Positions 2,341 through 24,620 of a stretch of 52,866 bases of DNA are shown in pieces (position 1 is the stretch's first letter; every line of letters begins with the position of its first letter). The position numbers and the translations under genes were made by a program. Source of the DNA: Candidatus Bathyarchaeota archaeon RBG_13_38_9. Lineage in GTDB: Archaea > Thermoproteota > Bathyarchaeia > 40CM-2-53-6 > RBG-13-38-9. The DNA lies in NCBI GenBank assembly GCA_001775955.1, contig MEZD01000001.1, positions 18,483 to 71,348 on the forward strand. The letters run 5' to 3'. The notes below the pieces were generated by a model that was given only the letters and a program-made list of their open reading frames with translations, did not search any database and was not told the origin of the DNA.

Positions 2341-2346
2341 AGTTAT

Positions 2347-5387: not shown

Positions 5388-5403
5388 CCAGCCACTGAAT
5401 TTC

Positions 5404-6753
5404 TTATTTCATTATCCTAAAAAGTAGATCAGTAATCTTTTCAAATGGTCTTCCAAATAATTTGTAGCCAATCTGTCCGAAATGTTTTCTAATTCTAAAT
5501 TGTACAGTTCCCTTGAATATTGCAAATTTTAATTTAAATTCTGAAAATTGAGATTTAAATTCAAGAGTCTGTTCAATAAGTTTTATTCTACTTTTTCTTG
5601 GTTCGATCAGATCGTCTTTTACTTTTTCGTATAAACCCGTTCCAGGTATAGGATAGGGAAGTGTGAATGATAGATAATCAAGAGGTAAAGTGGTTCCAAA
5701 ATGTATGGTATTAAGAATCATCTCTTCATTCTCTCCAGGATAACCTATTATAAGAAACGCTCCAGTCTCAATTCCTGCTTTGTTAGCGTTATAAACTGCG
5801 CTTCTAGCTGTTTGTAGATCAATATCTTTTTTCATTAAATGTAAGGTTCTTTGATCTCCAGATTCTATACCAAAATATACTCTCTGACAACCCGCTTCCT
5901 TCATTCTAGTAGCCATCTCTGGGTCCATAGCATCAACCCTAGAAAGACATTGCCACTTCACATTCAATTTACGTCTAATTATTTCGTCACATATTTTTAC
6001 TACTCTCTCTTTTGAAATTGTAAAGCAATCATCAGCAAACCATATTAGATCATATCCCATATCGATTATTGACTGCATTTCGTCTACTATGTTTTCATGA
6101 GATCTTGATCTGAAACCTTCTTTGAAGATCGGTCTGCTACAAAAATCACAGCGGAATGGGCACCCTCTTGAAGAGATCATGGAGGTCATGGTATAACCGA
6201 ATTTATTTTGGTAATATTGTTTATAGGAATCATTGTCGAATAGTTCTCTTGCAGGAAAAGGTATAGAGTCGAGATTTTCGATAGTGTTTCTTCTACCTGT
6301 ATGATATGTGTTTGAACCTTCTTTGAAGATTATCCCTGGAACCGTTTTTGGGTCTTTATTTTCGAAGAAAGTTTTTGCGATCTCAAGCATTGTATTCTCA
6401 GCTTCTCCGACAACCACAAGATCGAAATCGTCAAGAAAGCTTGAGGGTTTAGCTGTGGGTAGCGGTCCACCTGTAATCAGAAGATCAGTTACTTTTCGTA
6501 TACTCCTTGCAAGTTCAATACTATCTTGTTCCATGGAATACATAGAATAAATTCCAACAATTCTGGGTCTTAATTCCATAATCTCCTTAAGAACACTTTT
6601 TCGATCACGAAACGTGCAATCAATTAGTTTGACTGTCAAATTCGCCTTTCGCAGAAATGAAGCTATATAGCCCATTCCTAACGGTTGAAATCTAAACGGA
6701 GATCGATCAAGTCGTGATTTAAAGAACGGATATACAAGAACAATTTCAACCAA
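5404..6753 (-). CDS. Cobalamin-binding (class B) radical SAM enzyme.
   Basis: N-terminal B12-binding-like domain (PLGMGYIASFLRKANLTVKLIDC ... IVGIYSM) followed by the radical-SAM CxxxCxxC motif (SSRGCPFRCDFCS). Confidence 0.85.
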   Translation of the reverse strand: MVEIVLVYPFFKSRLDRSPFRFQPLGMGYIASFLRKANLTVKLIDCTFRDRKSVLKEIMELRPRIVGIYSMYSMEQDSIELARSIRKVTDLLITGGPLPTAKPSSFLDDFDLVVVGEAENTMLEIAKTFFENKDPKTVPGIIFKEGSNTYHTGRRNTIENLDSIPFPARELFDNDSYKQYYQNKFGYTMTSMISSRGCPFRCDFCSRPIFKEGFRSRSHENIVDEMQSIIDMGYDLIWFADDCFTISKERVVKICDEIIRRKLNVKWQCLSRVDAMDPEMATRMKEAGCQRVYFGIESGDQRTLHLMKKDIDLQTARSAVYNANKAGIETGAFLIIGYPGENEEMILNTIHFGTTLPLDYLSFTLPYPIPGTGLYEKVKDDLIEPRKSRIKLIEQTLEFKSQFSEFKLKFAIFKGTVQFRIRKHFGQIGYKLFGRPFEKITDLLFRIMK

Positions 6754-6763
6754 CCTGATCTCC

Positions 6764-7570
6764 TTATTTTATCTGTATAATATACTGATGATTTTCTATT
6801 TTTGATGAGGTCATATAACAGAATCCGGCCCAGTTTAAACGTGGTTGAAGGAGTTCACGTCCTCTATATAATTTTGTCTCGTCAAGTTTTTTTAGACAAA
6901 ACGTAATTTTTGCGGATTCATTTGTTAAACATACTTTTTGACAGTTTGTCTCTTCCCATACACCTATGTCGTCTTTCCTTAATTGAGTAAAATCATCTCT
7001 ATAAAGATCAAAATCTGCTGATTGCTCATTGAAAATTAGTAATCTATTGAAATTCTTGTCAAGAATGTGCAAAGTATTGACTGTAATAACCAAATTATCT
7101 CTTGATACCGCATAGGTGATATCTACAAATCCTTTTGAACGAGTTTTCTGAGTTGATATTCTAAGCCCCAGAATTGTTATGAACTTCATGAGATATTTTA
7201 TGAGTTTCCGATATTTTTCGTCTCGCTTGTACGTTTGACTTAATTTATTTGAAATAGTTGAATAAAACCTATCATTAATATTGAATTTATGCATCCAAGT
7301 CTTTCTATGGGAGGCATCCATAGAAAAAGACTTAACTAATGTTCCATTTTCATTCTTGATTTTCGCTGAAGTAGAGAAAATTATATTTCCTGGATATTCT
7401 AATGCAGGTACTCCAAAGCCTACTCCCTCACCACATAAAGAATCATTCTCAATAATCATCTTCAATCCTTTTTCTAGGGTTGAGGAATCACCTTGACTGC
7501 TGTCAGGTCCTTCGTCAAGAACAAATTTGATACGATTATTTAGTTTAAGAAAATATTTTTCCTGTGCCAA
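6764..7570 (-). CDS. Hypothetical soluble protein with no recognised family.
   Basis: 268-aa ORF lying 10 nt upstream of the radical SAM gene on the same strand. No motif recognised. Confidence 0.55.
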   Translation of the reverse strand: MAQEKYFLKLNNRIKFVLDEGPDSSQGDSSTLEKGLKMIIENDSLCGEGVGFGVPALEYPGNIIFSTSAKIKNENGTLVKSFSMDASHRKTWMHKFNINDRFYSTISNKLSQTYKRDEKYRKLIKYLMKFITILGLRISTQKTRSKGFVDITYAVSRDNLVITVNTLHILDKNFNRLLIFNEQSADFDLYRDDFTQLRKDDIGVWEETNCQKVCLTNESAKITFCLKKLDETKLYRGRELLQPRLNWAGFCYMTSSKIENHQYIIQIK

Positions 7571-7690
7571 TTATGTTCCCAATATTCAATAGTTACTAAT
7601 AACCGCATTATTATCAAATTTCATTTTCTTTATGATTTTTAATAGCGTACGCTATTCCCTTGAATATGATATATACTATATTTTAGAAAT

Positions 7691-8353
7691 TTATTCCCCA
7701 AGTAGGATTATCGAGATCATAGGAAATATTATCATCAATATTGTCCAGACGAATACTATCCTTGGCACACTGAAGTTTCCGATTTTTTTAACATATCTTT
7801 CCATGGTTGCAAGAGGAACTAGTATTAGTAATGTTATGTTGAATATGCTTGTGGACATTTCATGTTCCACTAGCAGAAATGGAGATGTATCTGTAAGTCC
7901 CCATCTTACTAGGAAGAAGATCAATGGCATGTGCGCTAATCCAAGATATGCAAAATTCAAGAAATGGATCTTCTCCCAAGCTTTCAATCTAGGATTTGGT
8001 TGCAGAATTTTGAATTTTCCTGTCCTCTCCAGAAGATAGAATATGATTAAGATTGCCAGAAGTGCGATAGATATGTACAGTACATCAGCATACCACCATA
8101 TAGCTAGAAATAAAGGAACTGTAAGAAATGAAGAGATTACAGCAAAAAATTGGCATACTAGACATCTGGAATAGTATGCAATTCCAACAGTTATGAAGAG
8201 AATAGGCATAACAAAATTATGACCCCACCGGATATCAGCTTCATAAAGTGGCATTGCTGGCCCTAGCCAAAAAAGGATCCATAATATTCCTAATATGAGA
8301 AGACCAGTTCCCACATTCATGTATTTTGACATCTTCTCATTCAAAGACTTCAC
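7691..8353 (-). CDS. Polytopic membrane protein, paralogous to the C-terminal domain of the 13675-14841 product.
   Basis: Collinear motif matches: MNVGTGLLILGILWILFW vs MDIGSGLILTGLFWLYFW; DIRWGHNFVMPILFITVGIAYY vs DARWAHNFAYPLILLTIGVAYK; LLERTGKFKIL vs VTERGKKQELL; LGLAHMPLIFFLVRW vs LFLLHMPFLYWVTRV; PLATMERYVKK vs ALIGMAERFRGT. Confidence 0.7.
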   Translation of the reverse strand: MKSLNEKMSKYMNVGTGLLILGILWILFWLGPAMPLYEADIRWGHNFVMPILFITVGIAYYSRCLVCQFFAVISSFLTVPLFLAIWWYADVLYISIALLAILIIFYLLERTGKFKILQPNPRLKAWEKIHFLNFAYLGLAHMPLIFFLVRWGLTDTSPFLLVEHEMSTSIFNITLLILVPLATMERYVKKIGNFSVPRIVFVWTILMIIFPMISIILLGE

Positions 8354-9228: not shown

Positions 9229-10239
9229 CTATTTGCTTGTCTCTAAAATTTTTGTCGCTACTTCTTGAGCCTTTAAAGCATCATCTGTTGTAATATCAGG
9301 TTGTTTATTCTGAAGAATAGATTGTATGAAATGTTCATCTTCTTGGTAATGCCCCCAAACTTTTGCTCCGCTCTCTCTAAATATCCACATTTGCTTCTGA
9401 GGATCCGAACCAAAAAGAGTTACTCTATCATTTTCTTCTGACAAAATACTATTTGTATTATCTCCAAGAACTTCCAGTCTCACCATGCTCATCGCATGTC
9501 TGACAAGTCCACTGAATTCTAGTGTCACAACTGTATTGTTAGAGAATTCAAGAACTGCAAGAGAGGCGTATCCATTTGTTCCACCGAGCTCCTGGAGAAT
9601 TGTATCTTTTGATACTGCGTGTACTTTTCTGACTTCAGCATTTAGAAGCCATCGTAGAAGATCGATAGACCACACAGATAATGTAAATGCTGGACCGCCT
9701 CCACTTTTCTCCTTATTCCATGCCCATGATGTAGGAGGCCATTGCCTTGCAAGGTCTACAGCAGGTATAAACTCTCGATAAAAGATTGCCGCCGGTTTTC
9801 CAATTGACCCTTTATCAATTAGCTCCTTTGTCTTAACATAATTCGGTGTAAATCTGAAATTGAGACTGGGCATTAAAATCACGCCAGCTTTCTTCGCCTC
9901 ATCAACTATTTCTTGAGCATCTTTCATGTTCGGTGCTAAAGGCATCTCACATAAGACATGCTTTCCAGCTTTGAGAGCATCGATAGCTATCTTCTTATGC
10001 AAAAAAGTTGGAACTGATATGACCACAGCACCAACATTTGGATCATTGATCAGATCCTCATGAGTAGAATATACAGACTTTATTTTTGATTTGTCTGCTG
10101 CCTTCTGCAAACGTTTCTGATCAACATCAGCTATAGCCACTAATCTAGAGCCGAGTATTCTTCGAAAAGCTGATAGATGCGCCTTTTCTCCGACAAAACC
10201 TAGACCTATAATTCCAATACCAACTTCAGTCTTAGTCAA
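9229..10239 (-). CDS. Gfo/Idh/MocA-family NAD(P)-dependent oxidoreductase.
   Basis: N-terminal Rossmann motif VGIGIIGLGFVGEKAH, the EMPLA motif (HVLCEMPLA), and a typical 336-aa length. Confidence 0.85.
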   Translation of the reverse strand: MTKTEVGIGIIGLGFVGEKAHLSAFRRILGSRLVAIADVDQKRLQKAADKSKIKSVYSTHEDLINDPNVGAVVISVPTFLHKKIAIDALKAGKHVLCEMPLAPNMKDAQEIVDEAKKAGVILMPSLNFRFTPNYVKTKELIDKGSIGKPAAIFYREFIPAVDLARQWPPTSWAWNKEKSGGGPAFTLSVWSIDLLRWLLNAEVRKVHAVSKDTILQELGGTNGYASLAVLEFSNNTVVTLEFSGLVRHAMSMVRLEVLGDNTNSILSEENDRVTLFGSDPQKQMWIFRESGAKVWGHYQEDEHFIQSILQNKQPDITTDDALKAQEVATKILETSK

Positions 10240-10404: not shown

Positions 10405-11052
10405 ATGGTCAAACTATCCTGCCATCATTGTGGCCACTATTGGGACTACCAAGGCAAAACAAAATATTATGCAACATGTCCAAATTGCCGATATAAAGTC
10501 AGAATCCAACCAGAAGAATCAATTAAACCAGAATTGAAAAGAAGAGACTTAGACTCCCGGAAAATATTAACCAAAGAGAAAAAACCGAAGAAACTAATCG
10601 GTATCGCCGCTATAGTCAGCAGAGTTATTGAAAAACACCAACAGAACAAGAGTATGTTAATTCAGATATTGCTTCAGCTACAAAATGACTTTGGATGGCT
10701 TCCAAGAGAAATGCTCACTGAGGTTAGCAAACAATTAGAAATACCATTAAATCGCGTATATCAGATTGCAACATTCTACAAGGCTTTTTCATTGGCCCCC
10801 AGAGGCAGACATCTGATTAGAGTCTGTATGGGAACATCATGTAAAGTAAGAGGCGCTACAACCATTCTAGATAAATTACAAAGCACATTAGAAATTGAAA
10901 AAGACCAAACAACACCAGACGGCAGATTCAGTCTTGAAACAGTGAATTGTGCAGGTTGTTGCGCATTGGGTCCTGTAATAACTATTGATGGCGACTATCA
11001 TGGAAATCTGAAGGTAGTGGATACTGAGAAGATATTGGCGAAATACAAGTGA
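10405..11052 (+). CDS. NuoE/HoxE-type [2Fe-2S] (24-kDa-like) subunit with an N-terminal zinc-ribbon extension.
   Basis: The C-terminal two-thirds carry NuoE cluster ligands (RVCMGTSCKVRG ... VNCAGCCALGP). The first about 35 aa (CHHCGHYW...CPNCRYKV) are a CxxC...CxxC ribbon followed by a Lys-rich linker. Confidence 0.85.
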   Translation: MVKLSCHHCGHYWDYQGKTKYYATCPNCRYKVRIQPEESIKPELKRRDLDSRKILTKEKKPKKLIGIAAIVSRVIEKHQQNKSMLIQILLQLQNDFGWLPREMLTEVSKQLEIPLNRVYQIATFYKAFSLAPRGRHLIRVCMGTSCKVRGATTILDKLQSTLEIEKDQTTPDGRFSLETVNCAGCCALGPVITIDGDYHGNLKVVDTEKILAKYK

Positions 11053-11059
11053 GCAGATA

Positions 11060-12988
11060 TTGGAGTCAATAAAACCAGTAAGAAATCCAGAAGAATTGGA
11101 AAAACTCCATCAAAAGATTGAAAGTGAACGTGGAAATGAAAAACCAATCGTCTCAATATGTATTAGTACAGGATGTGTCGCACTGGGTGCCACCTCAGTT
11201 CTTGAGGCTTTCAAAAATGGTATAAAGAAGACAAAATTAGAAAAAGAAGTGGAGATCAAAGAAACAGGTTGCCTAGGTTTCTGCGAACAAGGACCGCGAG
11301 TAACAATTTACCCAGATGAAATATGCTACTTCAAAGTCAAGCCTGATGATGTTCAGGAAATTATTTCTCAGACCATCAAAGAGAATAAGATTGTTGAACA
11401 TTTACTGTATACGGATCCTATAACCAGAAAAAAAGTACGAAGACTAGATGAAATTCCTTTCTATAAAGATCAGCTTAGACCACTTTTAGAAAATAATGCA
11501 AGAATAGATCCGAAAAATATACTGGATTATATCCATTTAGATGGATACAAGGCCCTAGCAAAGGCCATCACCCAAATGACCCCTCAACAAATCATCGAAG
11601 AGATCAAGAAATCTAAATTACGTGGCAGAGGTGGAGGTGGATTTCCAACCGGAATAAAATGGGAAACCACACGAAACGCCGCAGAACAAACAAAGTATGT
11701 AATTGTGAATTGTGACGAAGGAGATCCAGGTGCCTTCATGGACAGATCACTAATGGATGGCAATCCTCACAGTGTTCTGGAAGGACTTATCATAGGTGCC
11801 TTCGCCATAGGTGCAAAAGAAGGTTATGTATACGTAAGAGAGGAATACCCACTTGCAACAGAGAACATTACGACTGCAATTGACCAAGCTAAACAGTATG
11901 GATTTCTTGGTGAAGACATTTTAGGGTCAGGATTCAATTTCAACGTTAAAGTTCACAAGGGTGCAGGAGCATTTGTTTCAGGGGAATCCAGCGCCCTTAT
12001 GACAGCAATTGAGGGGAAAACAGGTGAACCCAGACCAAAATATATTCGCACAGCTGTCAAAGGACTCTGGAATAAACCTACCTGCCTAAATAACGTCAAA
12101 ACATGGGCAAACATACCACTCATAATAATGAAAGGGGCAGAGTGGTTCAAGAACATAGGCACTGAAGGTAGTAGTGGAACTGCAATTTTCTCTCTTGTTG
12201 GTAAAATCAAAAATACAGGGTTAGTAGAGGTTCCTATGGGCATCACTCTTCGAGACCTGATCTATAAGATCGGTGGAGGCATCAAAGACGATAATAAGTT
12301 CAAGGCCGTTCAAACCGGTGGCCCATCTGGAGGATTCATTCCCGAAGAGTATCTCGACCTCCAAGTAGATTTTGACGAGTTAGACAAGGTCGGCTCCATG
12401 ATGGGTTCTGGAGGCTTAGTTGTTATGGATGAGGATACTTGCATGGTAGATTCCGCAAGATATTTTGTAGATTTCTTATTAGAGGAATCCTGTGGAAAAT
12501 GTATTCCTTGCCGTGAGGGATTGAGAGTTCTATCTAAGATTCTTGGTAATATTTGTGAAGGAAAAGGAGAACATGTTGATATTGGAATAGTTGAAGATAT
12601 TGCTTTTACAATGGAGAATGCTTCACTATGTGCGTTGGGCACAACTGCCACTAACCCTGTTTTAACATCTCTGAAATATTTTAGAGAAGAATGGGATCAA
12701 CATATCAAAGATAAGAGATGTATAGCAAAAGTCTGTAAATCTCTTACCAACTTTTACATTGATCCAAAAGAATGCCAAGCTTGTCTAATCTGTCTTCGAG
12801 AGTGCCCAACAAAAGCGATCGAAGGTGAAAAAGATCAAGTCCACTGGATCAATCAGGAAAAATGTGAGAAATGCGGAATATGTTATGAAGTATGCAAATT
12901 TGATGCCGTCAAGAAACTTTCAGGTGAACCTATTCCCTCAAAACCAGCTAATGGAATGAAACCAATCCGTAAGGGTGTAAAACAATGA
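11060..12988 (+). CDS. NuoF/HydB/HoxF-type NAD(P)H-binding FMN/FeS subunit.
   Basis: N-terminal thioredoxin-like [2Fe-2S] domain (ICISTGCVALG ... GCLGFCEQGP), FMN/NADH motifs (GRGGGGFPTG, CDEGDPGAF), the N3 cluster (ESCGKCIPCREG) and a C-terminal 2x[4Fe-4S] domain (CQACLICLRECP, CEKCGICYEVC). TTG start. Confidence 0.9.
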   Translation: MESIKPVRNPEELEKLHQKIESERGNEKPIVSICISTGCVALGATSVLEAFKNGIKKTKLEKEVEIKETGCLGFCEQGPRVTIYPDEICYFKVKPDDVQEIISQTIKENKIVEHLLYTDPITRKKVRRLDEIPFYKDQLRPLLENNARIDPKNILDYIHLDGYKALAKAITQMTPQQIIEEIKKSKLRGRGGGGFPTGIKWETTRNAAEQTKYVIVNCDEGDPGAFMDRSLMDGNPHSVLEGLIIGAFAIGAKEGYVYVREEYPLATENITTAIDQAKQYGFLGEDILGSGFNFNVKVHKGAGAFVSGESSALMTAIEGKTGEPRPKYIRTAVKGLWNKPTCLNNVKTWANIPLIIMKGAEWFKNIGTEGSSGTAIFSLVGKIKNTGLVEVPMGITLRDLIYKIGGGIKDDNKFKAVQTGGPSGGFIPEEYLDLQVDFDELDKVGSMMGSGGLVVMDEDTCMVDSARYFVDFLLEESCGKCIPCREGLRVLSKILGNICEGKGEHVDIGIVEDIAFTMENASLCALGTTATNPVLTSLKYFREEWDQHIKDKRCIAKVCKSLTNFYIDPKECQACLICLRECPTKAIEGEKDQVHWINQEKCEKCGICYEVCKFDAVKKLSGEPIPSKPANGMKPIRKGVKQ

Positions 12989-13605
12989 AGACCCTAACCT
13001 TGAAGATCGATGGTAAAGAGATTGAAGCAAAAGAAGATATGACGATTCTCGAAGCAGCTGAGAAACTAGGGATCCAGATACCTACACTCTGTCACCATAA
13101 AAAATTAGAACCTTACGGAGCTTGCCGCATCTGCAGTGTTGAAATCGAAACAAGAGGAAAATCTCGGATTGTAGCTGCATGCTGTTATCCAGTCAAAAAC
13201 AATCTTAACGTAACTACTAGATCCACCCAAATAGACAAGATAAGAAAAACAATACTTGAACTCGCCGCGGTTACTGCTGGAGAAGATGCTATGGGTGAAA
13301 TGCGTAAACTAGCAAGTGAATATAACGCTGACCTATCCCACTTACGCTCAAAAACACCAATCGAACCAACAAGATGTATACTCTGCGGCCTATGTGTACG
13401 TCGCTGTATTGAGGCCACATGGGACAGTGTAATTGGATTCATTGGAAGAGGAACAAAAAGACAGATCGCACTTTATCCTGAAAAAGCATCGATATGCACG
13501 ATCTGCGACTATTGCCATGATGTCTGCCCTACAGGAAAAATAACATCAACTGGACCCGATCCTCCATTTCCTCAAATAGATGACGTTCTCGCAGGAAGGG
13601 AATAA
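12985..13605 (+). CDS. Short FeS protein equal to the N-terminal cluster domains of NuoG/HydA/FdhA, with no catalytic domain.
   Basis: MKTLTLKIDGKEIEAKEDMTILEAAEKLGIQIPTLCHH...GACRIC is the [2Fe-2S] domain, followed by CILCGLCVRRC and CTICDYCHDVCPTG. The protein ends at 206 aa. An ATGA overlap links it to the preceding gene. Confidence 0.8.
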   Translation: MKTLTLKIDGKEIEAKEDMTILEAAEKLGIQIPTLCHHKKLEPYGACRICSVEIETRGKSRIVAACCYPVKNNLNVTTRSTQIDKIRKTILELAAVTAGEDAMGEMRKLASEYNADLSHLRSKTPIEPTRCILCGLCVRRCIEATWDSVIGFIGRGTKRQIALYPEKASICTICDYCHDVCPTGKITSTGPDPPFPQIDDVLAGRE

Positions 13606-13674
13606 TTAAAATTAAATATGTTATCAACTGCGATATCATCTAAGAAGAATTTTCCTTTGGGGGCCTTATGAAAA

Positions 13675-14841
13675 TTGGCGAAAGAACGACTTATTGAAGC
13701 ATTAAATGATCTTGTAGCTGTAGAGATTGCAGCTGTGACTGAGTATCAACAACACGCCTACCTGATTGACGATCCGAAAATGATCGACCTTCTTGAAGAT
13801 TTCTCAATGGATGAAATGGCCCATATCGAATATTTTTCCAGGGAAGTTGCTCGTTTAGGCGGAATTCCCACAGTCATCCCCAAACAAATCAAACACGCCG
13901 GAGAAACCGATAATGAATTATTGCAACGCGATGTACACGTAGAGGCTGACGCAATCAAACGTCTAACTGAATATATGAAACTCGCTGAAGAAGAAGGAGC
14001 CCCCAGAATAAAGAAACTTCTTGAAGACGTTAGAGCTGATGAGATAGTCCATCATGATATGCTTGAAGCTCAACTGAACCCGCCCAAAGATTTCTGGGGT
14101 AAGATGAGGAATTCTATGGATATCGGTTCAGGCTTGATACTGACTGGATTATTTTGGCTATACTTCTGGGTATTTCAATGGTATGTATTCTTCTTGTTTG
14201 ATGCTCGATGGGCACACAATTTTGCTTATCCACTTATCCTACTGACTATAGGAGTAGCATACAAAGGAAAAAAAATGTCCACAGACCTTTTAGCATCAAT
14301 CTCAGCATTTATGATAATTCCAACTGAAACTGGATTAATTTCAGGTACACATAGCACCTACATAGTCAGCATAATACTTTTGATCATACTAGTATTGCTA
14401 GTGACTGAGCGAGGAAAAAAACAAGAATTACTATTCTTCCAGCACCGCTCTAGGCGATGGCTCAAAAAACACCTATTGACTTTTGCTTTTCTATTCCTAT
14501 TGCATATGCCATTTCTATACTGGGTCACTAGAGTAATCTTTGGAGAACCTGCTGAGTTAAATATGCCACCTGAGCCACCATGGGAAAGGGCATACTGGGG
14601 TACAGCGTCATACAATATTCTAGTAATTCCATTCGCTCTCATAGGAATGGCGGAAAGGTTCAGGGGAACTCTCAGAAGAAGAATATCAATATCAAAAATT
14701 GGTTATTGGTGGTCCCTTCTCATAATAATCGCAGGAGTCATCACTATAGGTGCAACATCTGGAGATTGGTTGAGATATTCAGCACCCCTTGTGATAGCAG
14801 TAATTATACTCATATTATCAATAGTAGCCCACAAGAAATAG
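13675..14841 (+). CDS. Bacterioferritin-like diiron domain fused to a polytopic membrane domain of unrecognised family.
   Basis: aa 1-135 form a four-helix-bundle pattern with E17, E47-x2-H50, E90 and E123-x2-H126 at Bfr-like ligand spacing. aa ~140-388 are multi-TM and paralogous to 7691-8353. TTG start with a GGGGG tract 12 nt upstream. Confidence 0.75.
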   Translation: MAKERLIEALNDLVAVEIAAVTEYQQHAYLIDDPKMIDLLEDFSMDEMAHIEYFSREVARLGGIPTVIPKQIKHAGETDNELLQRDVHVEADAIKRLTEYMKLAEEEGAPRIKKLLEDVRADEIVHHDMLEAQLNPPKDFWGKMRNSMDIGSGLILTGLFWLYFWVFQWYVFFLFDARWAHNFAYPLILLTIGVAYKGKKMSTDLLASISAFMIIPTETGLISGTHSTYIVSIILLIILVLLVTERGKKQELLFFQHRSRRWLKKHLLTFAFLFLLHMPFLYWVTRVIFGEPAELNMPPEPPWERAYWGTASYNILVIPFALIGMAERFRGTLRRRISISKIGYWWSLLIIIAGVITIGATSGDWLRYSAPLVIAVIILILSIVAHKK

Positions 14842-14859: not shown

Positions 14860-15417
14860 CTATTTTTTCTTTAAACACACTCGTTCAATAAATAGAGAAG
14901 TGACAATTGAAAAAGTAGCAATCTTGGTAATGTAGTTAAGAATTAGACTTGAAAATCCTAATAATATAGGAAAACCAATCATTATCCAGATTACGAATCC
15001 TACGATAAAAACTGTAATGGAACCATATAGAATTCTGTTTCTGGACCAAAATCCTATTCCACAAATGGGCATAATCAACCAAGAAACTCCAAGAGCAATA
15101 TAGTAAGGATTACCTTGGAGAATATGGTGCCCATGGACTATTAACGCAATTATGCTGAATATGAATTCGAATAGAAAAGCTGCACCAAATGGACAAGCTG
15201 AAGCTATCATAAAAGAATTCAATTTAGAAGTTCTCTTGGAAAGTAATAGAAAAATTATAAAAAAGGAAAAAACTGCACTGATCCATGTAATAGGAAAAAT
15301 CATATTCAAATCAGTTGTTGGACCACCAAGAAGTTGTTTTAGAACAGTTGGTCCAATCCAAGATCCTGGACCTGCAAAGTTAAGAATTAACCATTGGATC
15401 CATAATGGAACATACAT
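14860..15417 (-). CDS. Hypothetical integral membrane protein (about 6 TM).
   Basis: 185-aa hydrophobic ORF convergent with the ferritin-membrane fusion gene. No motif recognised. Confidence 0.55.
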   Translation of the reverse strand: MYVPLWIQWLILNFAGPGSWIGPTVLKQLLGGPTTDLNMIFPITWISAVFSFFIIFLLLSKRTSKLNSFMIASACPFGAAFLFEFIFSIIALIVHGHHILQGNPYYIALGVSWLIMPICGIGFWSRNRILYGSITVFIVGFVIWIMIGFPILLGFSSLILNYITKIATFSIVTSLFIERVCLKKK

Positions 15418-15495: not shown

Positions 15496-16323
15496 TTAAT
15501 AAAAGCGGGCTTGTTTATCAGATTTTTTGCCTATGAGTCTGCCACGCCCGACTTTTCCTTCATCAGCTGCTTTTACCCACATTGATAAGCCGTCATCAGC
15601 AGCTTGAAAGAGTTCAGCTCCATATTGTTTCAGTATTCCGTCCTTTAATTTCTCTTGGAGCCTCTTCTGGTAAAGGTGGCAATGTTCGGTGAAATCTTTG
15701 CTTAAATCTTCTTTCTCTAATACTTGTAAACCTGTATTTTTCATTAGCCCTTCATAGCCTTCTAAGGTTTCCATGTAAGGGAACGCCATGAAACTGTTAA
15801 GAGATTCCCACTCTTCAGCAGACATGTTTCCTACTTGAAGCCAGTCTGTAAAAGCTACGATTCCTTGAGGTTTTAAAACTCGGTATGATTCCTGCATTAG
15901 TTTATTTTTATCAGTGACATAACACCAGGCATCTTGACCCCAGACTATATCGAAACTTCCTGCTTTAAATGGCATATCTAAGGCATTGCCTAATTTGTAA
16001 GTAATCGAATCAGTTAGACCTTCTTTTTCAGTTCTTCTTATCGCTTCATTAATCATCTTTTCAGTGGCGTCTAATCCTGTCACTTGACATCCATATCTTT
16101 TTACAAGATATCGTGCTGGACCTCCAAGAGCGCTACAAACATCTAATACTACATTATCTTTCGCGATTCCTGCTTTTTGTGCAAGTATATCAGTTTCTTT
16201 ATCTCCACCGACGTGGATTTGTTCTCCCATTAGCATTTCCCATAGAATACCTACAGGACCTGTATAGACCTCATTTACATCCCCAATGGTGAAGTCTAAC
16301 CGTTTACCTTTTTCTAAACTCAT
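15496..16323 (-). CDS. Class I SAM-dependent methyltransferase.
   Basis: SAM motif I VLDVCSALGGPARYL, an acidic motif-II residue (GLDATEKM) and post-I FDIVWGQDA. The N-terminal LWEMLMGEQIHVGG resembles the WGxxxHxG block of the sarcosine/dimethylglycine, gamma-tocopherol and sterol methyltransferase group. The substrate is unknown. Confidence 0.8.
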   Translation of the reverse strand: MSLEKGKRLDFTIGDVNEVYTGPVGILWEMLMGEQIHVGGDKETDILAQKAGIAKDNVVLDVCSALGGPARYLVKRYGCQVTGLDATEKMINEAIRRTEKEGLTDSITYKLGNALDMPFKAGSFDIVWGQDAWCYVTDKNKLMQESYRVLKPQGIVAFTDWLQVGNMSAEEWESLNSFMAFPYMETLEGYEGLMKNTGLQVLEKEDLSKDFTEHCHLYQKRLQEKLKDGILKQYGAELFQAADDGLSMWVKAADEGKVGRGRLIGKKSDKQARFY

Positions 16324-16371
16324 TTTTTTCCTTCCATATTATTAATGAGAACAATAAGAAAATGGAAATAT

Positions 16372-17436
16372 CTATCTTAGGTTATCTGGATTTATCCAGC
16401 ATCTTGGATCTGGTGCTAACATATCTCCTGTATCATAATATGCTGTTGCTCTGCATCCCCAACAAACTGAATTATGCTCACAACTGTTGCAATGTCCCGG
16501 CATATTTTTCTGATTTCTCAAATGAGTTAGAAGCAGTTGATCCTTATTTTCTTCAATTATTTTTTCTAGAGGTTTCTCACTAATATTGCCAAATCCTTTT
16601 CTAATTACAGAACATGGTGTTAAATCGCCATCTATTGTTACACAAATCATTCCACCGCAGTAGAACTTATTGACGTCCATTGTGCTCATAGAAGGTTGAG
16701 ATTTTGAATAGTTGCTCACATCCCTTGAATCGCATGCTTCTTTTATCTCCTCAATTGTAGGGATCCATTCTGAATGTTCTTTAGCAAGACCAGTTTCGCA
16801 CATTTGTGTTAAGCAGGTTCTCATACCTTTCTTTTCAAAAAAATAGTTAATCGTATTTTTTACATCCTTGCCTGCAACGAGTTTAGTGAAAGTTATGCAG
16901 TTTATCATATTCTCAGGTTTTTTGCCCAGTGACTGAACATTATCAACTCCTTTTAATATAGTCTCAATCTTCTGTCGAGCATCACCAGTGTGTAATTTTT
17001 TGTAGATATTTTCATTTAGACTATCCAAATGTACTGAAACAAATCCACCTTCAGTAACTTTAACAACTTTCTTGGCTATCTCTACATCTGCCAGTGGAAG
17101 CCCACTTGTCCAGACGTTATTTTTTAAGCCTTTTTTGGTGGCGTATTCGACCAGATCATACCAATCTTTTCTAAGCAGTGGATCTCCTCCTAACCAATCT
17201 ATGGCTCGGACTTCCATTTTCGCAGCAGAATCTAAGACGCTTAATATCTGTTCTTTTGGAAGTTCTTTCATTGGAGTATTTTCATCTGATGCATAACAGT
17301 ATAGACAGCCTTGTTGACATTGTAAAGTGGATTCTATCTGGATGCTATAGACTTTGCATTGCTTGAAATATTCTATCTCTTCAGCATAATTAGGATGAAA
17401 GCATCCATAAACTACCACTGATTTATTTTCAGTCAA
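16372..17436 (-). CDS. Radical SAM enzyme with a C-terminal SPASM/twitch auxiliary-cluster domain.
   Basis: CxxxCxxC motif (CQQGCLYCYA). The C-terminal Cys-rich region (YCGGMICVTIDGDLTPCS ... GHCNSCEHNSVCWGCRATAY ... DPRCW) is typical of SPASM maturases. Confidence 0.85.
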   Translation of the reverse strand: MTENKSVVVYGCFHPNYAEEIEYFKQCKVYSIQIESTLQCQQGCLYCYASDENTPMKELPKEQILSVLDSAAKMEVRAIDWLGGDPLLRKDWYDLVEYATKKGLKNNVWTSGLPLADVEIAKKVVKVTEGGFVSVHLDSLNENIYKKLHTGDARQKIETILKGVDNVQSLGKKPENMINCITFTKLVAGKDVKNTINYFFEKKGMRTCLTQMCETGLAKEHSEWIPTIEEIKEACDSRDVSNYSKSQPSMSTMDVNKFYCGGMICVTIDGDLTPCSVIRKGFGNISEKPLEKIIEENKDQLLLTHLRNQKNMPGHCNSCEHNSVCWGCRATAYYDTGDMLAPDPRCWINPDNLR

Positions 17437-17518: not shown

Positions 17519-17992
17519 TTATTTAATTTCCTCTAGCTCACTCAGGATGTCATCGTAATTTGGCTCTACTGTAGGATCTTCTGTAATCCATTTGTAGCGT
17601 ATTATACCTTTGTCGTCTATAATGAAAATCGAACGTTTCGCTGCAGTATAACCTTTTAATCCAGCGAAATCTTCAACTGCTACTCCATAAATTTTTACAA
17701 CCTCTCGAGAATAGTCACTTAAAAGATTAAAATTGAGACCGTTTATTTCCGAAAAAGCCTTGTTGCAGAATGGATCATTAACGCTTATTCCAATCACCTG
17801 TGCCTTCATATCGTTGAGTTTTGTGAGCGAATCTCGTAAGGTACACATTTCCTTTGTACAAACACTCGTGAATGCACCAGGATAAAAAGCTAAGACAATC
17901 TTGTTATCGAAATTTGTTAGTGATATCTTTTTTAAATTAATATCTGTCAAAGTGAAAATTGGTGCATTATTACCAATTTCAATTTCTACCAT
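17519..17992 (-). CDS. Peroxiredoxin (AhpC/TSA, Bcp/PrxQ-like).
   Basis: Peroxidatic-Cys motif PGAFTSVCTKEMC. 157 aa with a thioredoxin-fold pattern. Confidence 0.9.
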   Translation of the reverse strand: MVEIEIGNNAPIFTLTDINLKKISLTNFDNKIVLAFYPGAFTSVCTKEMCTLRDSLTKLNDMKAQVIGISVNDPFCNKAFSEINGLNFNLLSDYSREVVKIYGVAVEDFAGLKGYTAAKRSIFIIDDKGIIRYKWITEDPTVEPNYDDILSELEEIK

Positions 17993-18160
17993 GATAAACC
18001 CCGAATATTAATTTCTATCGTGTGATTGACTTTTATTTGAAATAAATAAATTTCGCTTTAGTACACTACGCTGAAAATATCTTTATCAACCATTAGCACG
18101 CACACTTCAATCATTAATGCTCGATATCCTTTTATTCATGAATTTTGGAAAAGGGCTAAG

Positions 18161-18667
18161 GTGTTTTTCATGGGAAAAAAGGCAAGAGATATAGTAAAAA
18201 TAGGAATTCAAGAATTACTTAAAGATCTCAATAGCTTATATGCAGATGAGTGGATAGCTTTTTACTATTACACGTGGGCTGCAAGTTATGCAGAAGGCCC
18301 ATTTTCTCCATCAATAACAAGTGAAATTGAAAAAATATCAAAAGATGAATTCGAGCATTCATCTGAACTTGCAGATAGAATATATGAGTTGGGTGGAGAA
18401 CCAGAGAAAGAACTAGAGAATCTTCAAAAATTAGCGAACTGTAAGAAAATCACATTCCCAAAAGACGAAAGAGATATCGATGGTATACTTAATGCTCTTA
18501 CTGCTGCAGAAGCATGTGCCATAGATGGGTATAATAAACTTCTACTCAAAATATCATCGTGTTATACAAATGATGTACGAACATTTCACCTCATTCAACA
18601 TATACTTTCAGAAGAAATCGAACATGAAGAAGCTTTTGAAAATCTACTAGAAAAGAAGAGACAATAA
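18161..18667 (+). CDS. Ferritin-like diiron protein (Dps-like/DPSL or bacterioferritin-like).
   Basis: Four-helix-bundle pattern with ExxH pairs (KDEFEHSSE, SEEIEHEEA). It is divergent from the peroxiredoxin gene. The start is GTG 18161 or ATG 18170. Confidence 0.75.
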   Translation: MFFMGKKARDIVKIGIQELLKDLNSLYADEWIAFYYYTWAASYAEGPFSPSITSEIEKISKDEFEHSSELADRIYELGGEPEKELENLQKLANCKKITFPKDERDIDGILNALTAAEACAIDGYNKLLLKISSCYTNDVRTFHLIQHILSEEIEHEEAFENLLEKKRQ

Positions 18668-24617: not shown

Positions 24618-24620
24618 AAA

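What the first reader, a model, noticed from the sequence alone, without database searches (positions are those of the whole stretch)
10405..14841. NuoE/NuoF/truncated-NuoG electron-input module with no catalytic partner, followed by a membrane-anchored diiron ferritin-like protein
Four co-directional genes sit at minimal spacing: a 7-nt gap, an ATGA overlap at 12985-12988, and a 69-nt gap. Gene 1 is a NuoE-type [2Fe-2S] protein. Gene 2 is a NuoF/HydB-type FMN/NAD(P)H subunit with extra FeS domains. Gene 3 is only the N-terminal cluster-binding region of NuoG/HydA/FdhA and stops at 206 aa. No H-cluster, molybdopterin or [NiFe] catalytic domain occurs in the cluster or elsewhere in the window. 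Where a catalytic subunit would be expected there is a 388-aa protein. Its first ~135 aa form a bacterioferritin-like bundle with a complete diiron ligand set at Bfr-like spacing (E17, E47-x2-H50, E90, E123-x2-H126). Its last ~250 aa form a polytopic membrane domain that does not look like the VIT1/CCC1 domain known to be fused to ferritin-like modules. My inference is an NAD(P)H-driven, membrane-bound diiron oxidoreductase. It could detoxify O2 or H2O2, or mobilise or transport iron reductively, in a ferredoxin-based anaerobe. I do not recognise this combination as a described system.
Basis: partly seen in the sequence, partly recalled or inferred. Interest (0 to 1): 0.75.

Follow-up and report, generated by a model that had tools for sequence, protein, structure and literature searches.

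The report
Bfu electron module beside membrane-anchored mini-bacterioferritin
A Bathyarchaeia genome places a self-contained NADH/ferredoxin electron-bifurcation-type module next to a rare, undescribed protein that tethers a bacterioferritin-like diiron domain to a membrane domain with no detectable relative outside its own small family, but comparison with relatives suggests the two are neighbours in some lineages, not an obligate machine.

Summary
Four co-directional genes lie at 10405-14841 with the stated 7-nt gap, ATGA overlap and 69-nt gap, and the domain calls are correct. No hydrogenase, formate dehydrogenase or molybdopterin domain occurs in the window.

Genes 1-3 are a BfuC-BfuB-BfuA trio of the electron-bifurcating Bfu/HydABC family. 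The closest solved relative is WorABC of Acetomicrobium mobile. The 206-aa "truncated NuoG" is a conserved minimal BfuA ([2Fe-2S] plus two [4Fe-4S]). The trio is widespread in archaea with variable neighbours.

Gene 4 fuses a mini-bacterioferritin-type domain to an 8-TM domain. All six diiron ligands, Tyr24 and the Met at the haem-ligand position are invariant. The 8-TM domain has no Pfam, PDB-sequence or Foldseek match, so it is not VIT1. The family is small and Bathyarchaeia-only.

Linkage to the trio is kept in four g4 lineages and absent in about eight. A near relative has lost gene 4 and kept the trio. The gap carries a conserved TATA-like box. The steadier neighbours of gene 4 are a 185-aa membrane protein, a methyltransferase/radical-SAM pair, glycosyltransferases and peroxide/iron-stress genes.

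Verdict: two units, with possible but unproven coupling. A Bfu-plus-diiron precedent (Rub-Bfu) was already predicted in 2022.

The parts
10405..11052 (+). g1: BfuC/HydC/NuoE-type thioredoxin-like [2Fe-2S] subunit (aa 72-215). It has a ~70-aa N-terminal CxxC...CxxC zinc-ribbon-like extension and a Lys-rich linker.
   Evidence: Pfam PF01257 E 2.6e-50. HoxE and NuoE NCBIfam models match below their cut-offs. The extension is read directly from the sequence.
11060..12988 (+). g2: BfuB/HydB-type FMN/NAD(H) subunit. It has an N-terminal trx-like [2Fe-2S], a NuoF core, SLBB, an N3-type [4Fe-4S] and a C-terminal 2x[4Fe-4S] ferredoxin domain.
   Evidence: Pfam. Best PDB hits are WorB 9mqx_B (E 7.6e-228, aligned 10-617), NiFe-HydB 7t2r_B and HydB 8a6t/7q4v/7p5h. 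Non-bifurcating NuoF/Nqo1 score only about 346 bits and cover only 155-551.
12985..13605 (+). g3: minimal BfuA (206 aa). [2Fe-2S] at C36/C47/C50/C66-67, plus two CxxCxxCxxxC [4Fe-4S] motifs at C131-C141 and C171-C181. There is no His-ligated cluster and no catalytic domain. The C-terminal tail PPFPxxDDxLAGR(E/K) is conserved.
   Evidence: Pfam Fer2_4 plus Fer4_Nqo3. Best PDB hit is WorA 9mqx_A (E 6.2e-33, aligned 5-187). It belongs to a large family of conserved length. Tail conservation is shown.
13606..13674 (+). 69-nt g3-g4 spacer. It holds a TATA-like box ATTAAATA (13611-13618) and a G-rich Shine-Dalgarno-like run (13659-13663). It has no T-run of five or more.
   Evidence: Sequence. The ATTAAATA box is present in all 15 linked loci aligned, one of them (L029) with a single substitution, although the rest of the spacer has diverged. 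Unlinked loci instead carry a TCTTATAT-type box at about -70.
13675..14088 (+). g4 N-domain (aa 1-138): cytoplasmic four-helix mini-bacterioferritin-type diiron domain. Key residues are E17, Y24, E47, M48, H50, E90, E123 and H126.
   Evidence: Pfam Ferritin. All listed residues are invariant. Foldseek gives 9qq4 mini-bacterioferritin at TMt 0.91 and 30% identity. phmmer gives 9qq4 at 6.9e-15, with E-M-x-H aligned to the Bfr E51-M52-x-H54 motif.
14089..14841 (+). g4 C-domain (aa 139-388): 8-TM domain with no detectable relative outside its own small family. Topology is N-in/C-in by the positive-inside rule. The invariant motifs D176-x-R-W-x-H-N-F, P216-T-E, N296-x-P-x-E and W308-x-T fall on the side opposite those Lys/Arg-rich loops (the outer face by inference); the invariant residues H277-M278 lie in the fifth TM helix (H257-288).
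   Evidence: AF2 pLDDT 89.5, pTM 0.88. No Foldseek PDB hit at E<0.69. Only 27 representative clusters among 1.84 billion proteins. No Pfam hit at E<=10 apart from noise.
14860..15417 (-). mem185: 185-aa polytopic membrane protein of unknown family, tail-to-tail with g4 across 18 nt. It is the most constant neighbour of g4.
   Evidence: No Pfam or NCBIfam match. The family has 34 clusters, all >=60% identical; the few that a source names are Bathyarchaeota/Thermoproteota (one labelled [Eubacterium] cellulosolvens). It lies next to g4 in at least 15 loci of both arrangement classes. One exception, L052, shows no g4.
15496..17436 (-). Class I SAM methyltransferase (15496-16323) and radical-SAM/SPASM protein (16372-17436). 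They are co-directional with mem185 and recur near g4 in most relatives.
   Evidence: Pfam and NCBIfam. Recurrence is shown.
7691..8353 (-). Stand-alone paralogue (220 aa) of the g4 membrane domain. It is followed on the same strand by an unknown 268-aa protein, a B12-radical-SAM protein and a GT87-like glycosyltransferase (4131-7570).
   Evidence: BLASTP 28% identity, E 2e-22 over 216 aa. The same three-gene block precedes g4 itself in L001 and L036 and lies near it in L024.
17519..18667 (.). Thiol peroxidase/Prx (17519-17992, -) and a DPS-like ferritin (18161-18667, +). These form the oxidative-stress context.
   Evidence: Pfam AhpC-TSA and Ferritin; NCBIfam thiol peroxidase and archaeal DPS models match below their cut-offs.
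9229..10239 (-). GFO/IDH/MocA NAD(P)-dependent oxidoreductase, transcribed divergently from g1. The pairing is conserved even where g4 is absent.
   Evidence: Pfam. It is conserved in L008, L011, L013, L027, L030, L041 and L048.

Best explanation
The interval holds two separable units that are neighbours in this lineage.

Unit 1 (10405-13605) is a cytoplasmic BfuC-BfuB-BfuA(minimal) module of the flavin/FeS electron-bifurcating Bfu (HydABC-like) family. BfuB binds NAD(H) at FMN. Its N-terminal [2Fe-2S] and C-terminal 2x[4Fe-4S] domains are the marks of the ferredoxin-interacting, bifurcating class. The minimal BfuA ([2Fe-2S] plus two [4Fe-4S], equivalent to clusters A1-A2-A4 of WorA) is an electron wire whose distal cluster must exchange electrons with a third partner. 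That partner is not encoded in cis. The module behaves as a generic 'plug', conserved as a stand-alone trio across Bathyarchaeia, Hadarchaeales and Heimdallarchaeota. These steps are inferred from homology.

Unit 2 (13675-14841, probably together with the 185-aa membrane protein at 14860-15417) is a membrane-anchored mini-bacterioferritin. A cytoplasmic four-helix diiron ferroxidase domain carries a complete ligand set, the ferritin Tyr, and a Met at the Bfr haem-ligand position. It is tethered to an 8-TM domain with no detectable relative outside its own small family. The most likely role is iron and peroxide handling at the membrane: Fe(II) is oxidised by H2O2 or O2 at the diiron site, and the membrane domain accepts or moves the iron. 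This is analogous in logic to MbfA (ferritin-like domain plus VIT1) but uses an unrelated membrane domain. The role is inferred from domain chemistry and from the recurrent Prx/AhpC, DPS/ferritin, rubrerythrin and hemerythrin neighbours.

The adjacency to Unit 1 is kept in four g4 lineages and may permit read-through co-expression. It is not required for either unit.
For: Unit 1:
- g2 matches bifurcating BfuB/HydB structures end-to-end at 630-761 bits, against about 346 bits and core-only coverage for NuoF.
- g3 is best matched by the small WorA, whose cluster set A1, A2, A4 is described in PMC12318220.
- The family definition in PMC9304861 is met by all three subunits.

Autonomy of the trio:
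- The same three-gene unit with unrelated downstream genes is seen in L012, L013/14, L015, L050 and L051.
- The g3 tail is conserved regardless of g4.
- L048 retains the trio but only 45 codons of g4.

Independence of g4:
- It is unlinked in L001, L002-7, L009, L022, L024, L025, L036, L038, L040 and L043.
- Linked loci are not monophyletic in an NJ tree.
- A TATA-like box is conserved in the spacer.

Unit 2:
- Ligands, Y24 and M48 are invariant.
- There is structural and sequence similarity to mini-Bfr and Bfr.
- The confident 8-TM model has no known relative.
- mem185 shares the same small distribution and is adjacent.
- Oxidative-stress genes lie near g4 in every arrangement class.
- The MbfA precedent is taken from PMC7762939.
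Against: - The g3-g4 adjacency is on the same strand with a constant spacer of about 70 nt. It persists across g4 identities from 95% down to 62% in 13 loci (15 if two loci with partial g4, L029 and L042, are counted), more than random juxtaposition predicts.
- The window's spacer has no oligo-T terminator, so co-transcription is possible.
- A minimal BfuA needs a partner, and none other is visible nearby.
- A Bfu-plus-diiron pairing (Rub-Bfu) has been proposed before.
- The iron-handling role for g4 has no direct evidence. The most conserved residues of the membrane-domain superfamily are predicted to lie on the outer face (by the inferred topology). Its paralogue sits inside glycosyltransferase/radical-SAM clusters, which fits an envelope-related function equally well.
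- The NJ tree is unrooted in effect and has no support values.
Confidence: 0.5

Rival explanations
1. In the linked lineages the Bfu trio and g4 form one membrane-associated complex. NADH and reduced ferredoxin are confurcated in BfuBC. Electrons leave through BfuA's distal [4Fe-4S] to the Bfr-like domain, either directly to the diiron site or via a Met48-ligated haem as in Bfd-to-Bfr transfer. There they reduce H2O2 or O2, or reduce Fe(III) for transport through the 8-TM domain. This would be a BfuA-containing, membrane-bound counterpart of the predicted Rub-Bfu.
For: - Same-strand adjacency with a constant spacer of about 70 nt occurs in four g4 lineages at 62-95% identity.
- The window's spacer has no strong terminator.
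- The minimal BfuA lacks any cis partner.
- The Rub-Bfu precedent is in PMC9304861.
- Met is invariant at the Bfr haem-ligand position.
Against: - The trio is far more widespread than g4 and occurs without it.
- g4 is unlinked in most lineages.
- g4 is deleted next to an intact trio in L048.
- The spacer carries a conserved promoter-like box.
- The g3 tail is unchanged by the presence or absence of g4.
- The co-distributed partner of g4 is mem185, not the trio.
Confidence: 0.2
2. g4 belongs to a cell-envelope or lipid-modification gene cluster. The 8-TM domain and its stand-alone paralogue would be a new membrane enzyme or transporter acting at the outer face on a polyprenyl-linked glycan or a lipid. 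The cytoplasmic diiron domain would act as an iron/O2/peroxide sensor, or provide oxidative chemistry, not as an iron store or exporter.
For: - The paralogue and g4 recur with GT2, GT87-like and MptA_B-type GT-C glycosyltransferases, a B12-radical-SAM protein, a radical-SAM/SPASM protein and a methyltransferase.
- In L001 the radical-SAM, methyltransferase, paralogue, GT-C and mem185 genes form one co-directional string that ends tail-to-tail with g4.
- The residues conserved across the fusion and the paralogues (R178, W179, H181, N182, R286, P298, T310) are predicted to lie on the outer face by the positive-inside topology.
Against: - The membrane domain has no homology to any known glycan or lipid enzyme or flippase.
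- A complete ferroxidase ligand set with the ferritin Tyr is typical of iron-oxidising ferritins.
- Peroxide and iron-stress genes are equally recurrent neighbours.
- Gene-neighbourhood conservation within one archaeal class may be plain synteny.
Confidence: 0.15
3. The trio is the diaphorase part of a bidirectional [NiFe] hydrogenase (HoxEFU) or of complex I (NuoEFG). The remaining subunits would be encoded elsewhere, and g4 would be irrelevant.
For: NCBIfam best names are HoxE, NuoF_fam and HoxU. Some termite-gut Bathyarchaeia carry hoxEFUYH (PMC7886697).
Against: - All of these NCBIfam scores are below the family cut-offs.
- g2 has the extra N- and C-terminal FeS domains of bifurcating BfuB and scores twice as high against HydB/WorB as against NuoF.
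- g3 lacks the His-ligated cluster (read directly from the sequence). Its match to the HoxU model is below cut-off, with its best stretch at residues 1-94.
- None of the five other trio loci carries hoxYH or nuo genes nearby.
Confidence: 0.05

Closest known systems
WorABC 'plug' of the electron-bifurcating tungsten aldehyde oxidoreductase WorABCSL (Acetomicrobium mobile, PDB 9MQX; Bfu family Type 2)
   Same: - Best solved homologue of both g2 (E 7.6e-228, near full length) and g3 (E 6.2e-33).
- The small BfuA has [2Fe-2S] plus two [4Fe-4S] and no A3 cluster.
- BfuB has an N-terminal [2Fe-2S] and C-terminal 2x[4Fe-4S].
- BfuC is NuoE-like.

   Different: - No WorS/WorL (AOR-family) genes are in the operon or the window.
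- g3 is 206 aa against 247 aa. It lacks WorA's C-terminal zinc finger and adaptor helix and ends instead in a conserved PPFPxxDDxLAGRE tail.
- Gene order is C-B-A.
- The host is archaeal.
Rub-Bfu (predicted Type 4 Bfu enzyme: BfuBC plus adjacent rubrerythrin; Schut et al. 2022, PMC9304861)
   Same: A Bfu core is followed on the same strand by a ferritin-superfamily diiron protein. The proposed role is NADH/Fd-driven peroxide detoxification.
   Different: - Here a BfuA is present.
- The diiron protein is bacterioferritin-like, not rubrerythrin. It has no rubredoxin-type domain, and its Rubrerythrin Pfam score is below threshold.
- It is fused to an 8-TM domain.
- The adjacency is not conserved across the family.
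MbfA, membrane-bound ferritin (erythrin-VIT1 fusion) of alpha-proteobacteria
   Same: An N-terminal cytoplasmic ferritin-like diiron domain is fused to a C-terminal polytopic membrane domain. It cannot form a cage. It is associated with peroxide and iron stress (PMC7762939).
   Different: - The membrane domain is not VIT1/CCC1 (no Pfam hit at E<=10; no Foldseek match). The model gives 8 TM helices.
- The N-domain is Bfr/mini-Bfr-type, not erythrin-type.
- The host is archaeal.
- Iron export is untested.
Mini-bacterioferritin (Ca. Methanoperedens, PDB 9QQ4; PMC13168243)
   Same: - Four-helix domain of about 137 aa without helix E.
- Same diiron ligands.
- Met at the haem-ligand position.
- 30% identity, TM-score 0.91.
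   Different: Mini-Bfr is a soluble 12-mer cage with six haems. g4 is membrane-tethered, so a closed cage is unlikely. Haem binding and oligomeric state are unknown.
HoxEFU diaphorase / NuoEFG N-module
   Same: The homologous E, F and G/U subunit folds bind NAD(H), FMN and FeS clusters.
   Different: - All equivalog scores are below cut-off.
- g2 carries the additional domains characteristic of Bfu.
- g3 lacks the His-ligated cluster and any C-terminal domain.
- No HoxYH or Nuo membrane-arm genes are nearby.

Membership tests
Bfu (BfuABC/HydABC-like) electron-bifurcating family, as defined in PMC9304861 | BfuB carries the NuoF FMN domain, SLBB, the NuoF [4Fe-4S] domain and a 4Fe-4S ferredoxin-type domain, plus the extra N-terminal [2Fe-2S]. 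| tested here: met
   Pfam PF01512, PF10531, PF10589, Fer4 dicluster (566-620) and PF01257 (28-104). There is an end-to-end match to WorB and HydB structures.
Bfu (BfuABC/HydABC-like) electron-bifurcating family, as defined in PMC9304861 | BfuC is a NuoE-like thioredoxin-fold [2Fe-2S] protein. | tested here: met
   PF01257 E 2.6e-50.
Bfu (BfuABC/HydABC-like) electron-bifurcating family, as defined in PMC9304861 | BfuA has at minimum a 2Fe-2S ferredoxin-type domain and a 4Fe-4S ferredoxin-type domain. | tested here: met
   PF13510 plus Fer4_Nqo3/Fer4_21. Cys motifs are read from the sequence.
Bfu (BfuABC/HydABC-like) electron-bifurcating family, as defined in PMC9304861 | A third-substrate module (a catalytic domain in BfuA or extra subunits) and tightly coupled NAD(H)/Fd/third-substrate bifurcation activity. 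| tested here: not met
   No catalytic domain is present in g3, and no recognised partner is present in the window or in five other trio loci. Activity is not testable with these tools.
Type 2 Bfu (small BfuA with A1, A2, A4; extra subunits feed A4) | BfuA lacks clusters A3 and A5. | tested here: met
   Only three Cys cluster motifs are present. There is no H-x3-C-x2-C motif and no C-terminal domain. The best match is WorA, which lacks A3.
Type 2 Bfu (small BfuA with A1, A2, A4; extra subunits feed A4) | Additional catalytic subunits (WorSL, Por, Bam and others) are encoded in the same cluster. | tested here: not met
   None is adjacent. The two-subunit OFOR at 1486-4071 lies 6 kb away on the opposite strand.
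Rub-Bfu (Type 4) | A BfuBC core without BfuA, with a rubrerythrin gene directly downstream of BfuB. | tested here: not met
   A BfuA is present between BfuB and the diiron protein. The Rubrerythrin Pfam score is 21.7 bits, below the 22.8 cut-off, and covers only aa 81-132. There is no rubredoxin-like domain.
HoxEFU(YH) bidirectional hydrogenase | HoxE, HoxF and HoxU equivalogs with adjacent HoxY and HoxH. | tested here: not met
   HoxE scores 147.6 bits against a 224 cut-off. HoxU scores 118.7 against 333. The window has no [NiFe] subunits.
Bacterioferritin / mini-bacterioferritin | Ferroxidase-centre ligands E, ExxH, E, ExxH plus the conserved Tyr. | tested here: met
   E17, Y24, E47, H50, E90, E123 and H126 are invariant in 19 sequences. 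They align to Bfr and mini-Bfr.
Bacterioferritin / mini-bacterioferritin | An axial Met ligand for inter-subunit haem. | tested here: inconclusive
   M48 is invariant and aligns with Bfr M52 and the mini-Bfr Met. Haem binding itself is not testable here.
Bacterioferritin / mini-bacterioferritin | A soluble 24-mer or 12-mer cage that stores an iron mineral. | not testable with these tools
   The domain is covalently tethered to an 8-TM domain, which argues against a closed cage. The bfr equivalog TIGR00754 scores 43.3 bits against a 125.55 cut-off.
MbfA (ferritin-like domain plus VIT1 iron exporter) | An N-terminal cytoplasmic ferritin-like diiron domain. | tested here: met
   Pfam Ferritin at 7-135. 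There is no signal peptide, and positive-inside loops place the N-terminus in the cytoplasm (sequence reading combined with the helices).
MbfA (ferritin-like domain plus VIT1 iron exporter) | A C-terminal VIT1/CCC1 (PF01988) membrane domain. | tested here: not met
   There is no VIT1 hit at E<=10. No PDB fold match is better than E 0.69, and no VIT1 entry appears among the 50 listed hits.

The most novel reading that the evidence does not exclude
In a subset of Bathyarchaeia, a Bfu-type bifurcating module uses its minimal BfuA to wire NADH and ferredoxin electrons into a membrane-anchored, possibly haem-bearing mini-bacterioferritin. With the 8-TM domain and the 185-aa partner, this would form a new membrane-bound Bfu enzyme. 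It would reduce H2O2 or O2, or drive reductive iron movement across the membrane. It would be the first Bfu complex whose third substrate is handled by a ferritin-fold protein on a membrane domain of unknown fold.
Probability: 0.17. Interest if true: 0.8.

Novelty: new variant of a known kind. Interest (0 to 1): 0.5.

Why it matters
- **A new membrane-anchored ferritin.** Gene 4 defines a small, lineage-restricted family: a bacterioferritin-type ferroxidase domain on a confidently modelled 8-TM domain with no relative in Pfam, in the PDB or among 1.84 billion representative proteins beyond its own small family. It would be a second, independent way of anchoring a ferritin-fold diiron site to a membrane, after MbfA. 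That gives a handle on how strictly anaerobic sediment archaea cope with iron and peroxide.
- **An orphan Bfu trio.** The stand-alone BfuCBA trio with a minimal BfuA is widespread in Bathyarchaeia, Hadarchaeales and Heimdallarchaeota and has no recognisable third-substrate partner. Identifying that partner would extend the Bfu 'plug' concept to archaea.
- **A possible coupling.** If the two units do couple in the linked lineages, this would be a testable version of the predicted Bfu-diiron peroxide reductase.

Tried and rejected
- **VIT1/CCC1 identity of the membrane domain.** Rejected. There is no Pfam hit at E<=10 and no Foldseek PDB match.
- **g3 as a truncated or pseudogenised NuoG.** Rejected. 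It belongs to a large family of conserved length, 198-217 aa, and matches the naturally small WorA.
- **HoxEFU or NuoEFG identity.** Rejected on sub-threshold NCBIfam scores and on the Bfu-specific extra domains.
- **A catalytic partner elsewhere in the window.** None was found in Pfam scans of 44 ORFs, which cover all the large non-overlapped ones.
- **RNA features.** There are no tRNAs and no Rfam hits in the window.
- **Full-length Foldseek search.** It returned only ferritin-domain hits, so the membrane domain was remodelled and searched alone.
- **Bacterial promoter/terminator scan.** Not run, because the tool does not model archaeal promoters. The spacer was compared across loci instead.
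- **Radical-SAM/SPASM neighbour as an AhbD/NirJ haem enzyme.** Only weak similarity was found, about 105 bits against cut-offs of 395-650. It is kept as a lead, not a finding.
- **mem185 as an obligate partner of g4.** One locus, L052, has mem185 without g4 in the 10.4 kb retrieved from the end of a 53.6-kb contig (only 864 nt lie upstream of mem185).
- **Limits.** No structure-prediction jobs remained after the two monomer models, so no g3-g4 or g4-mem185 complex was modelled. Whole-genome co-occurrence could not be computed because only loci, not genomes, can be fetched.

Full report
**Observation**

The four ORFs exist exactly as described: 10405-11052, 11060-12988, 12985-13605 and 13675-14841, all on the + strand. 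The gaps are 7 nt, an ATGA overlap and 69 nt.

Pfam and NCBIfam confirm the domain content:
- g1 is a NuoE/HydC-type thioredoxin-like [2Fe-2S] protein.
- g2 is a NuoF-type FMN subunit with an extra N-terminal trx-like [2Fe-2S] domain and a C-terminal 2x[4Fe-4S] ferredoxin domain.
- g3 is a 206-aa protein with an N-terminal [2Fe-2S] domain and two CxxCxxCxxxC motifs.
- g4 is a 388-aa protein whose residues 7-135 match Ferritin (E 4.9e-19) and whose remainder matches nothing.

Pfam scans of 44 ORFs, covering all the large non-overlapped ORFs of the window, found no hydrogenase, formate dehydrogenase or molybdopterin domain. The window is archaeal. It encodes A-type ATPase A/B/D, TFE-alpha, MttB/corrinoid pairs and OFORs. 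Every source name given for the near relatives is Bathyarchaeota/Bathyarchaeia, apart from several MAG proteins labelled [Eubacterium] cellulosolvens.

**Genes 1-3 are a Bfu module**

Against solved structures, g2 matches the B subunits of electron-bifurcating enzymes from end to end:

| Structure | Score |
|---|---|
| WorB 9MQX | 761 bits, residues 10-617 |
| NiFe-HydB 7T2R | 753 bits |
| HydB 8A6T / 7Q4V / 7P5H | 707 / 684 / 632 bits |
| NfnB 9N5U | 631 bits |
| Non-bifurcating NuoF/Nqo1 | about 346 bits, residues 155-551 only |

g3 is best matched by WorA, the naturally small (247-aa) BfuA of the A. mobile WorABCSL complex (E 6.2e-33). WorA carries A1 [2Fe-2S], A2 and A4 [4Fe-4S] and lacks A3 (PMC12318220). 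g3 has the same three motifs and no His-ligated cluster.

All three subunits satisfy the domain definition of the Bfu family given by Schut et al. 2022 (PMC9304861). The HoxE, HoxU, NuoE and NuoF NCBIfam models all score below their cut-offs. So g3 is not 'truncated'. Proteins of 198-217 aa with this architecture form a large family at 58-95% identity in Bathyarchaeia, Heimdallarchaeota and Hadarchaeales.

**The trio is autonomous**

Five look-ups anchored on g3 homologues from other lineages each found the same C-B-A trio. They included a 2.35-Mb contig and contigs of 460, 341, 183 and 162 kb. The downstream genes were unrelated in each case: CODH/ACS-associated genes, a Zn-ribbon/RDD/ferritin set, NfnAB-like genes, Rad50/Mre11, and unknowns. 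No gene 4 and no recognisable catalytic partner were present.

The divergently transcribed GFO/IDH/MocA gene upstream is conserved with the trio even where gene 4 is absent. g3 ends in a conserved tail, PPFPxxDDxLAGR(E/K), which is identical in character whether or not gene 4 follows. Compared with WorA, g3 lacks the Zn-finger and adaptor helix that recruits WorS. How it docks a partner is therefore unknown.

**Gene 4**

*N-domain.* The N-terminal 138 residues are a four-helix bundle.
- E17, Y24, E47, M48, H50, E90, E123 and H126 are invariant across 19 homologues.
- Foldseek places the domain closest to the recently described mini-bacterioferritin of Ca. Methanoperedens (9QQ4: TM 0.91, 30% identity), then to classical Bfr.
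- phmmer agrees, and aligns E47-M48-x-H50 with the Bfr E51-M52-x-H54 motif. The invariant Met therefore sits at the haem-ligand position.

*C-domain.* The C-terminal 250 residues were modelled with high confidence (pLDDT 89.5, pTM 0.88) as eight TM helices.
- Lys/Arg-rich loops at 196-202, 245-264 and 329-341 and the C-terminal HKK indicate an N-in/C-in topology, so the diiron domain is cytoplasmic. This is inferred from the sequence.
- Foldseek against the PDB found nothing better than E 0.69.
- Pfam gives no VIT1 even at E<=10.
- An exhaustive phmmer of 1.84 billion representative proteins found only 27 clusters, including stand-alone forms of 190-280 aa.
- One such paralogue lies in the window at 7691-8353 (28% identity, E 2e-22).

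*Family size.* The fusion family comprises 29 clusters at 90% identity, all >=60% identical to the query. It occurs in nine of 185,579 species genomes, all Bathyarchaeia.

**Is gene 4 coupled to the trio?**

Fifty-two loci were collected, and tblastn with the window's proteins was run on the 49 held at that point.

| Arrangement | Lineages or loci |
|---|---|
| g3 directly precedes g4 | window group (88-95% g4 identity; six loci plus the window); L020/L028/L029/L042 (about 70%); L011/L030/L041 (about 65%); L037 (62%) |
| g4 elsewhere | L001/L036 (after unknown-268, B12-radical-SAM, GT87); L002-4/L031 and L005-7/L023/L039 (after a GT2); L009/L021 (after AhpC, beside ferritin, rhodanese, OsmC); L022, L024, L025, L038/L040/L043 |

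Further points against obligate coupling:
- In an NJ tree of g4 the linked loci fall into two groups separated by unlinked ones. The tree is weak and has no support values.
- L048 is nearly identical to the linked locus L041. It retains GFO and the intact trio but only the first 45 codons of g4.
- The spacers of the linked loci have diverged except for an ATTAAATA box just after the g3 stop (13611-13618 in the window, about 57-64 nt before the start codon) and a G-rich ribosome-binding site.
- Unlinked loci carry a TCTTATAT-type box about 70 nt upstream. These boxes resemble archaeal TATA boxes, which I judge from general knowledge of archaeal promoters. They suggest that g4 has its own promoter wherever it sits.

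Points that keep coupling open:
- The window's spacer has no T-run of five or more, so read-through cannot be excluded.

**What gene 4 does keep as neighbours**

- The 185-aa membrane protein at 14860-15417 lies tail-to-tail with g4 across 18 nt in at least 15 loci of both arrangement classes. Its family has the same small, sparsely named distribution: 34 clusters, all >=60% identical. One locus has it without g4 in the 10.4 kb retrieved from the end of a 53.6-kb contig.
- A methyltransferase and a radical-SAM/SPASM protein, co-directional with mem185 in the window, recur in most loci.
- The stand-alone paralogue, an MptA_B-type GT-C, GT2s and the unknown-268/B12-radical-SAM/GT87 block recur as well.
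- Peroxide and iron-stress genes are present in every class:
  - Prx and a DPS-like ferritin here.
  - AhpC (two copies), ferritin and OsmC in L009.
  - Rubrerythrin in L001.
  - Hemerythrin-PAS in L002-7.

**Mechanism**

I favour two units.

*Unit 1* is a cytoplasmic Bfu 'plug'. It handles NAD(H) at FMN and ferredoxin at the BfuB C-terminal clusters. A minimal BfuA wire has a distal cluster that serves an unidentified partner encoded elsewhere. Its closest characterised relative plugs into a tungsten aldehyde oxidoreductase. AOR-family genes lie a few kb from the trio in L013 and near g4 in L005, but none is in an operon with it.

*Unit 2* is a membrane-anchored mini-bacterioferritin. It most likely oxidises Fe(II) with H2O2 or O2 at the cytoplasmic diiron site and hands iron to, or receives it from, the 8-TM domain and mem185. 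This follows the logic shown for MbfA (ferritin-like domain plus VIT1; PMC7762939), with an unrelated membrane part.

The domain chemistry is shown by sequence and structure comparison. The iron and peroxide role, and any transport, are inferences.

It has a published analogue in the predicted Rub-Bfu. A third reading has g4 serving an envelope or lipid-modification cluster with the diiron domain as sensor or oxidant. The glycosyltransferase/radical-SAM context and the predicted outer-face position of the superfamily's conserved residues keep it open.

**Novelty and verdict**

- The Bfu identity of genes 1-3 is a new member of a known family.
- A stand-alone archaeal trio with a minimal BfuA and no visible third-substrate module is not, to my knowledge, characterised. 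Schut et al. note many Bfu clusters of unknown third substrate.
- Gene 4 is a new variant of the 'membrane-bound ferritin' idea, with a membrane domain that has no detectable relative outside its own small family.
- As a whole the finding is real and moderately interesting. The claimed four-gene system is not established, and part of its rationale has already been anticipated in the literature.

Noticed in passing
window 14860-15417 (-): A 185-aa polytopic membrane protein has no family match. Its 34 known clusters are all >=60% identical, and the few that a source names are Bathyarchaeota/Thermoproteota (one labelled [Eubacterium] cellulosolvens). It lies tail-to-tail with the ferritin-membrane fusion in at least 15 loci. 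The two look like a co-inherited pair.
   Followed up: partly
window 4131-8353 (-): A stand-alone paralogue of the 8-TM domain (7691-8353) is followed by an unknown 268-aa protein, a B12-binding radical-SAM protein and a GT87-like GT-C glycosyltransferase. The same three-gene block sits directly upstream of the fusion gene in L001 and L036 and near it in L024.
   Followed up: partly
window 13611-13618; the equivalent position in 14 other linked loci: An ATTAAATA box immediately after the g3 stop codon is conserved although the rest of the spacer has diverged. Unlinked loci have a TCTTATAT-type box about 70 nt upstream of the fusion gene. These are candidate archaeal TATA boxes.
   Followed up: partly
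L048 10001-10183, compared with L041 10001-11167: A near-identical relative has lost residues 46-388 of the fusion gene, and the nearby Prx gene, while the GFO gene and the Bfu trio stay intact. This is a natural deletion showing that the trio does not need gene 4.
   Followed up: yes
window 10405-10620 (g1 aa 1-72): The NuoE/BfuC-like subunit has an N-terminal CxxC...CxxC zinc-ribbon-like segment and a Lys-rich linker. The extension is present in some lineages (214-215 aa in L013 and L051) and absent from the called genes of others (167-174 aa in L012, L015 and L050).
   Followed up: no
window 13546-13605 (g3 C-terminus): The tail PPFPxxDDxLAGR(E/K) is conserved in the minimal BfuA across lineages with and without gene 4. 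It may be a docking peptide replacing the Zn-finger and adaptor helix of WorA.
   Followed up: partly
window 16372-17436 (-) and g4 residue M48: The recurrent radical-SAM/SPASM neighbour is weakly most similar to the NirJ/AhbD/AhbC tetrapyrrole-modifying enzymes (E about 1e-30, far below cut-offs). The fusion protein keeps an invariant Met at the bacterioferritin haem-ligand position. A haem connection is possible but untested.
   Followed up: no
window 1486-4071 (-) and 36728-39804 (-): There are two 2-oxoacid:ferredoxin oxidoreductase gene sets. The first (alpha/beta type) also lies just beyond the GFO gene next to the trio in L041. Schut et al. list Por-Bfu enzymes, but here the genes are on the opposite strand and 6 kb away.
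   Followed up: no
window 23901-26072 (+) and 51455-52099 (+); 28464-31551: The window carries MttB-family methyltransferase and corrinoid-protein genes. It also carries a NikR regulator next to CbiM/CbiQ/ABC-ATPase Ni/Co uptake genes. Both are typical of methylotrophic or corrinoid-dependent Bathyarchaeia metabolism.
   Followed up: no
L051 7628-9779: In one lineage the trio is followed after a 3-nt gap by two unknown proteins of 193 and 464 aa with no Pfam match. They may be a lineage-specific partner of the minimal BfuA.
   Followed up: no
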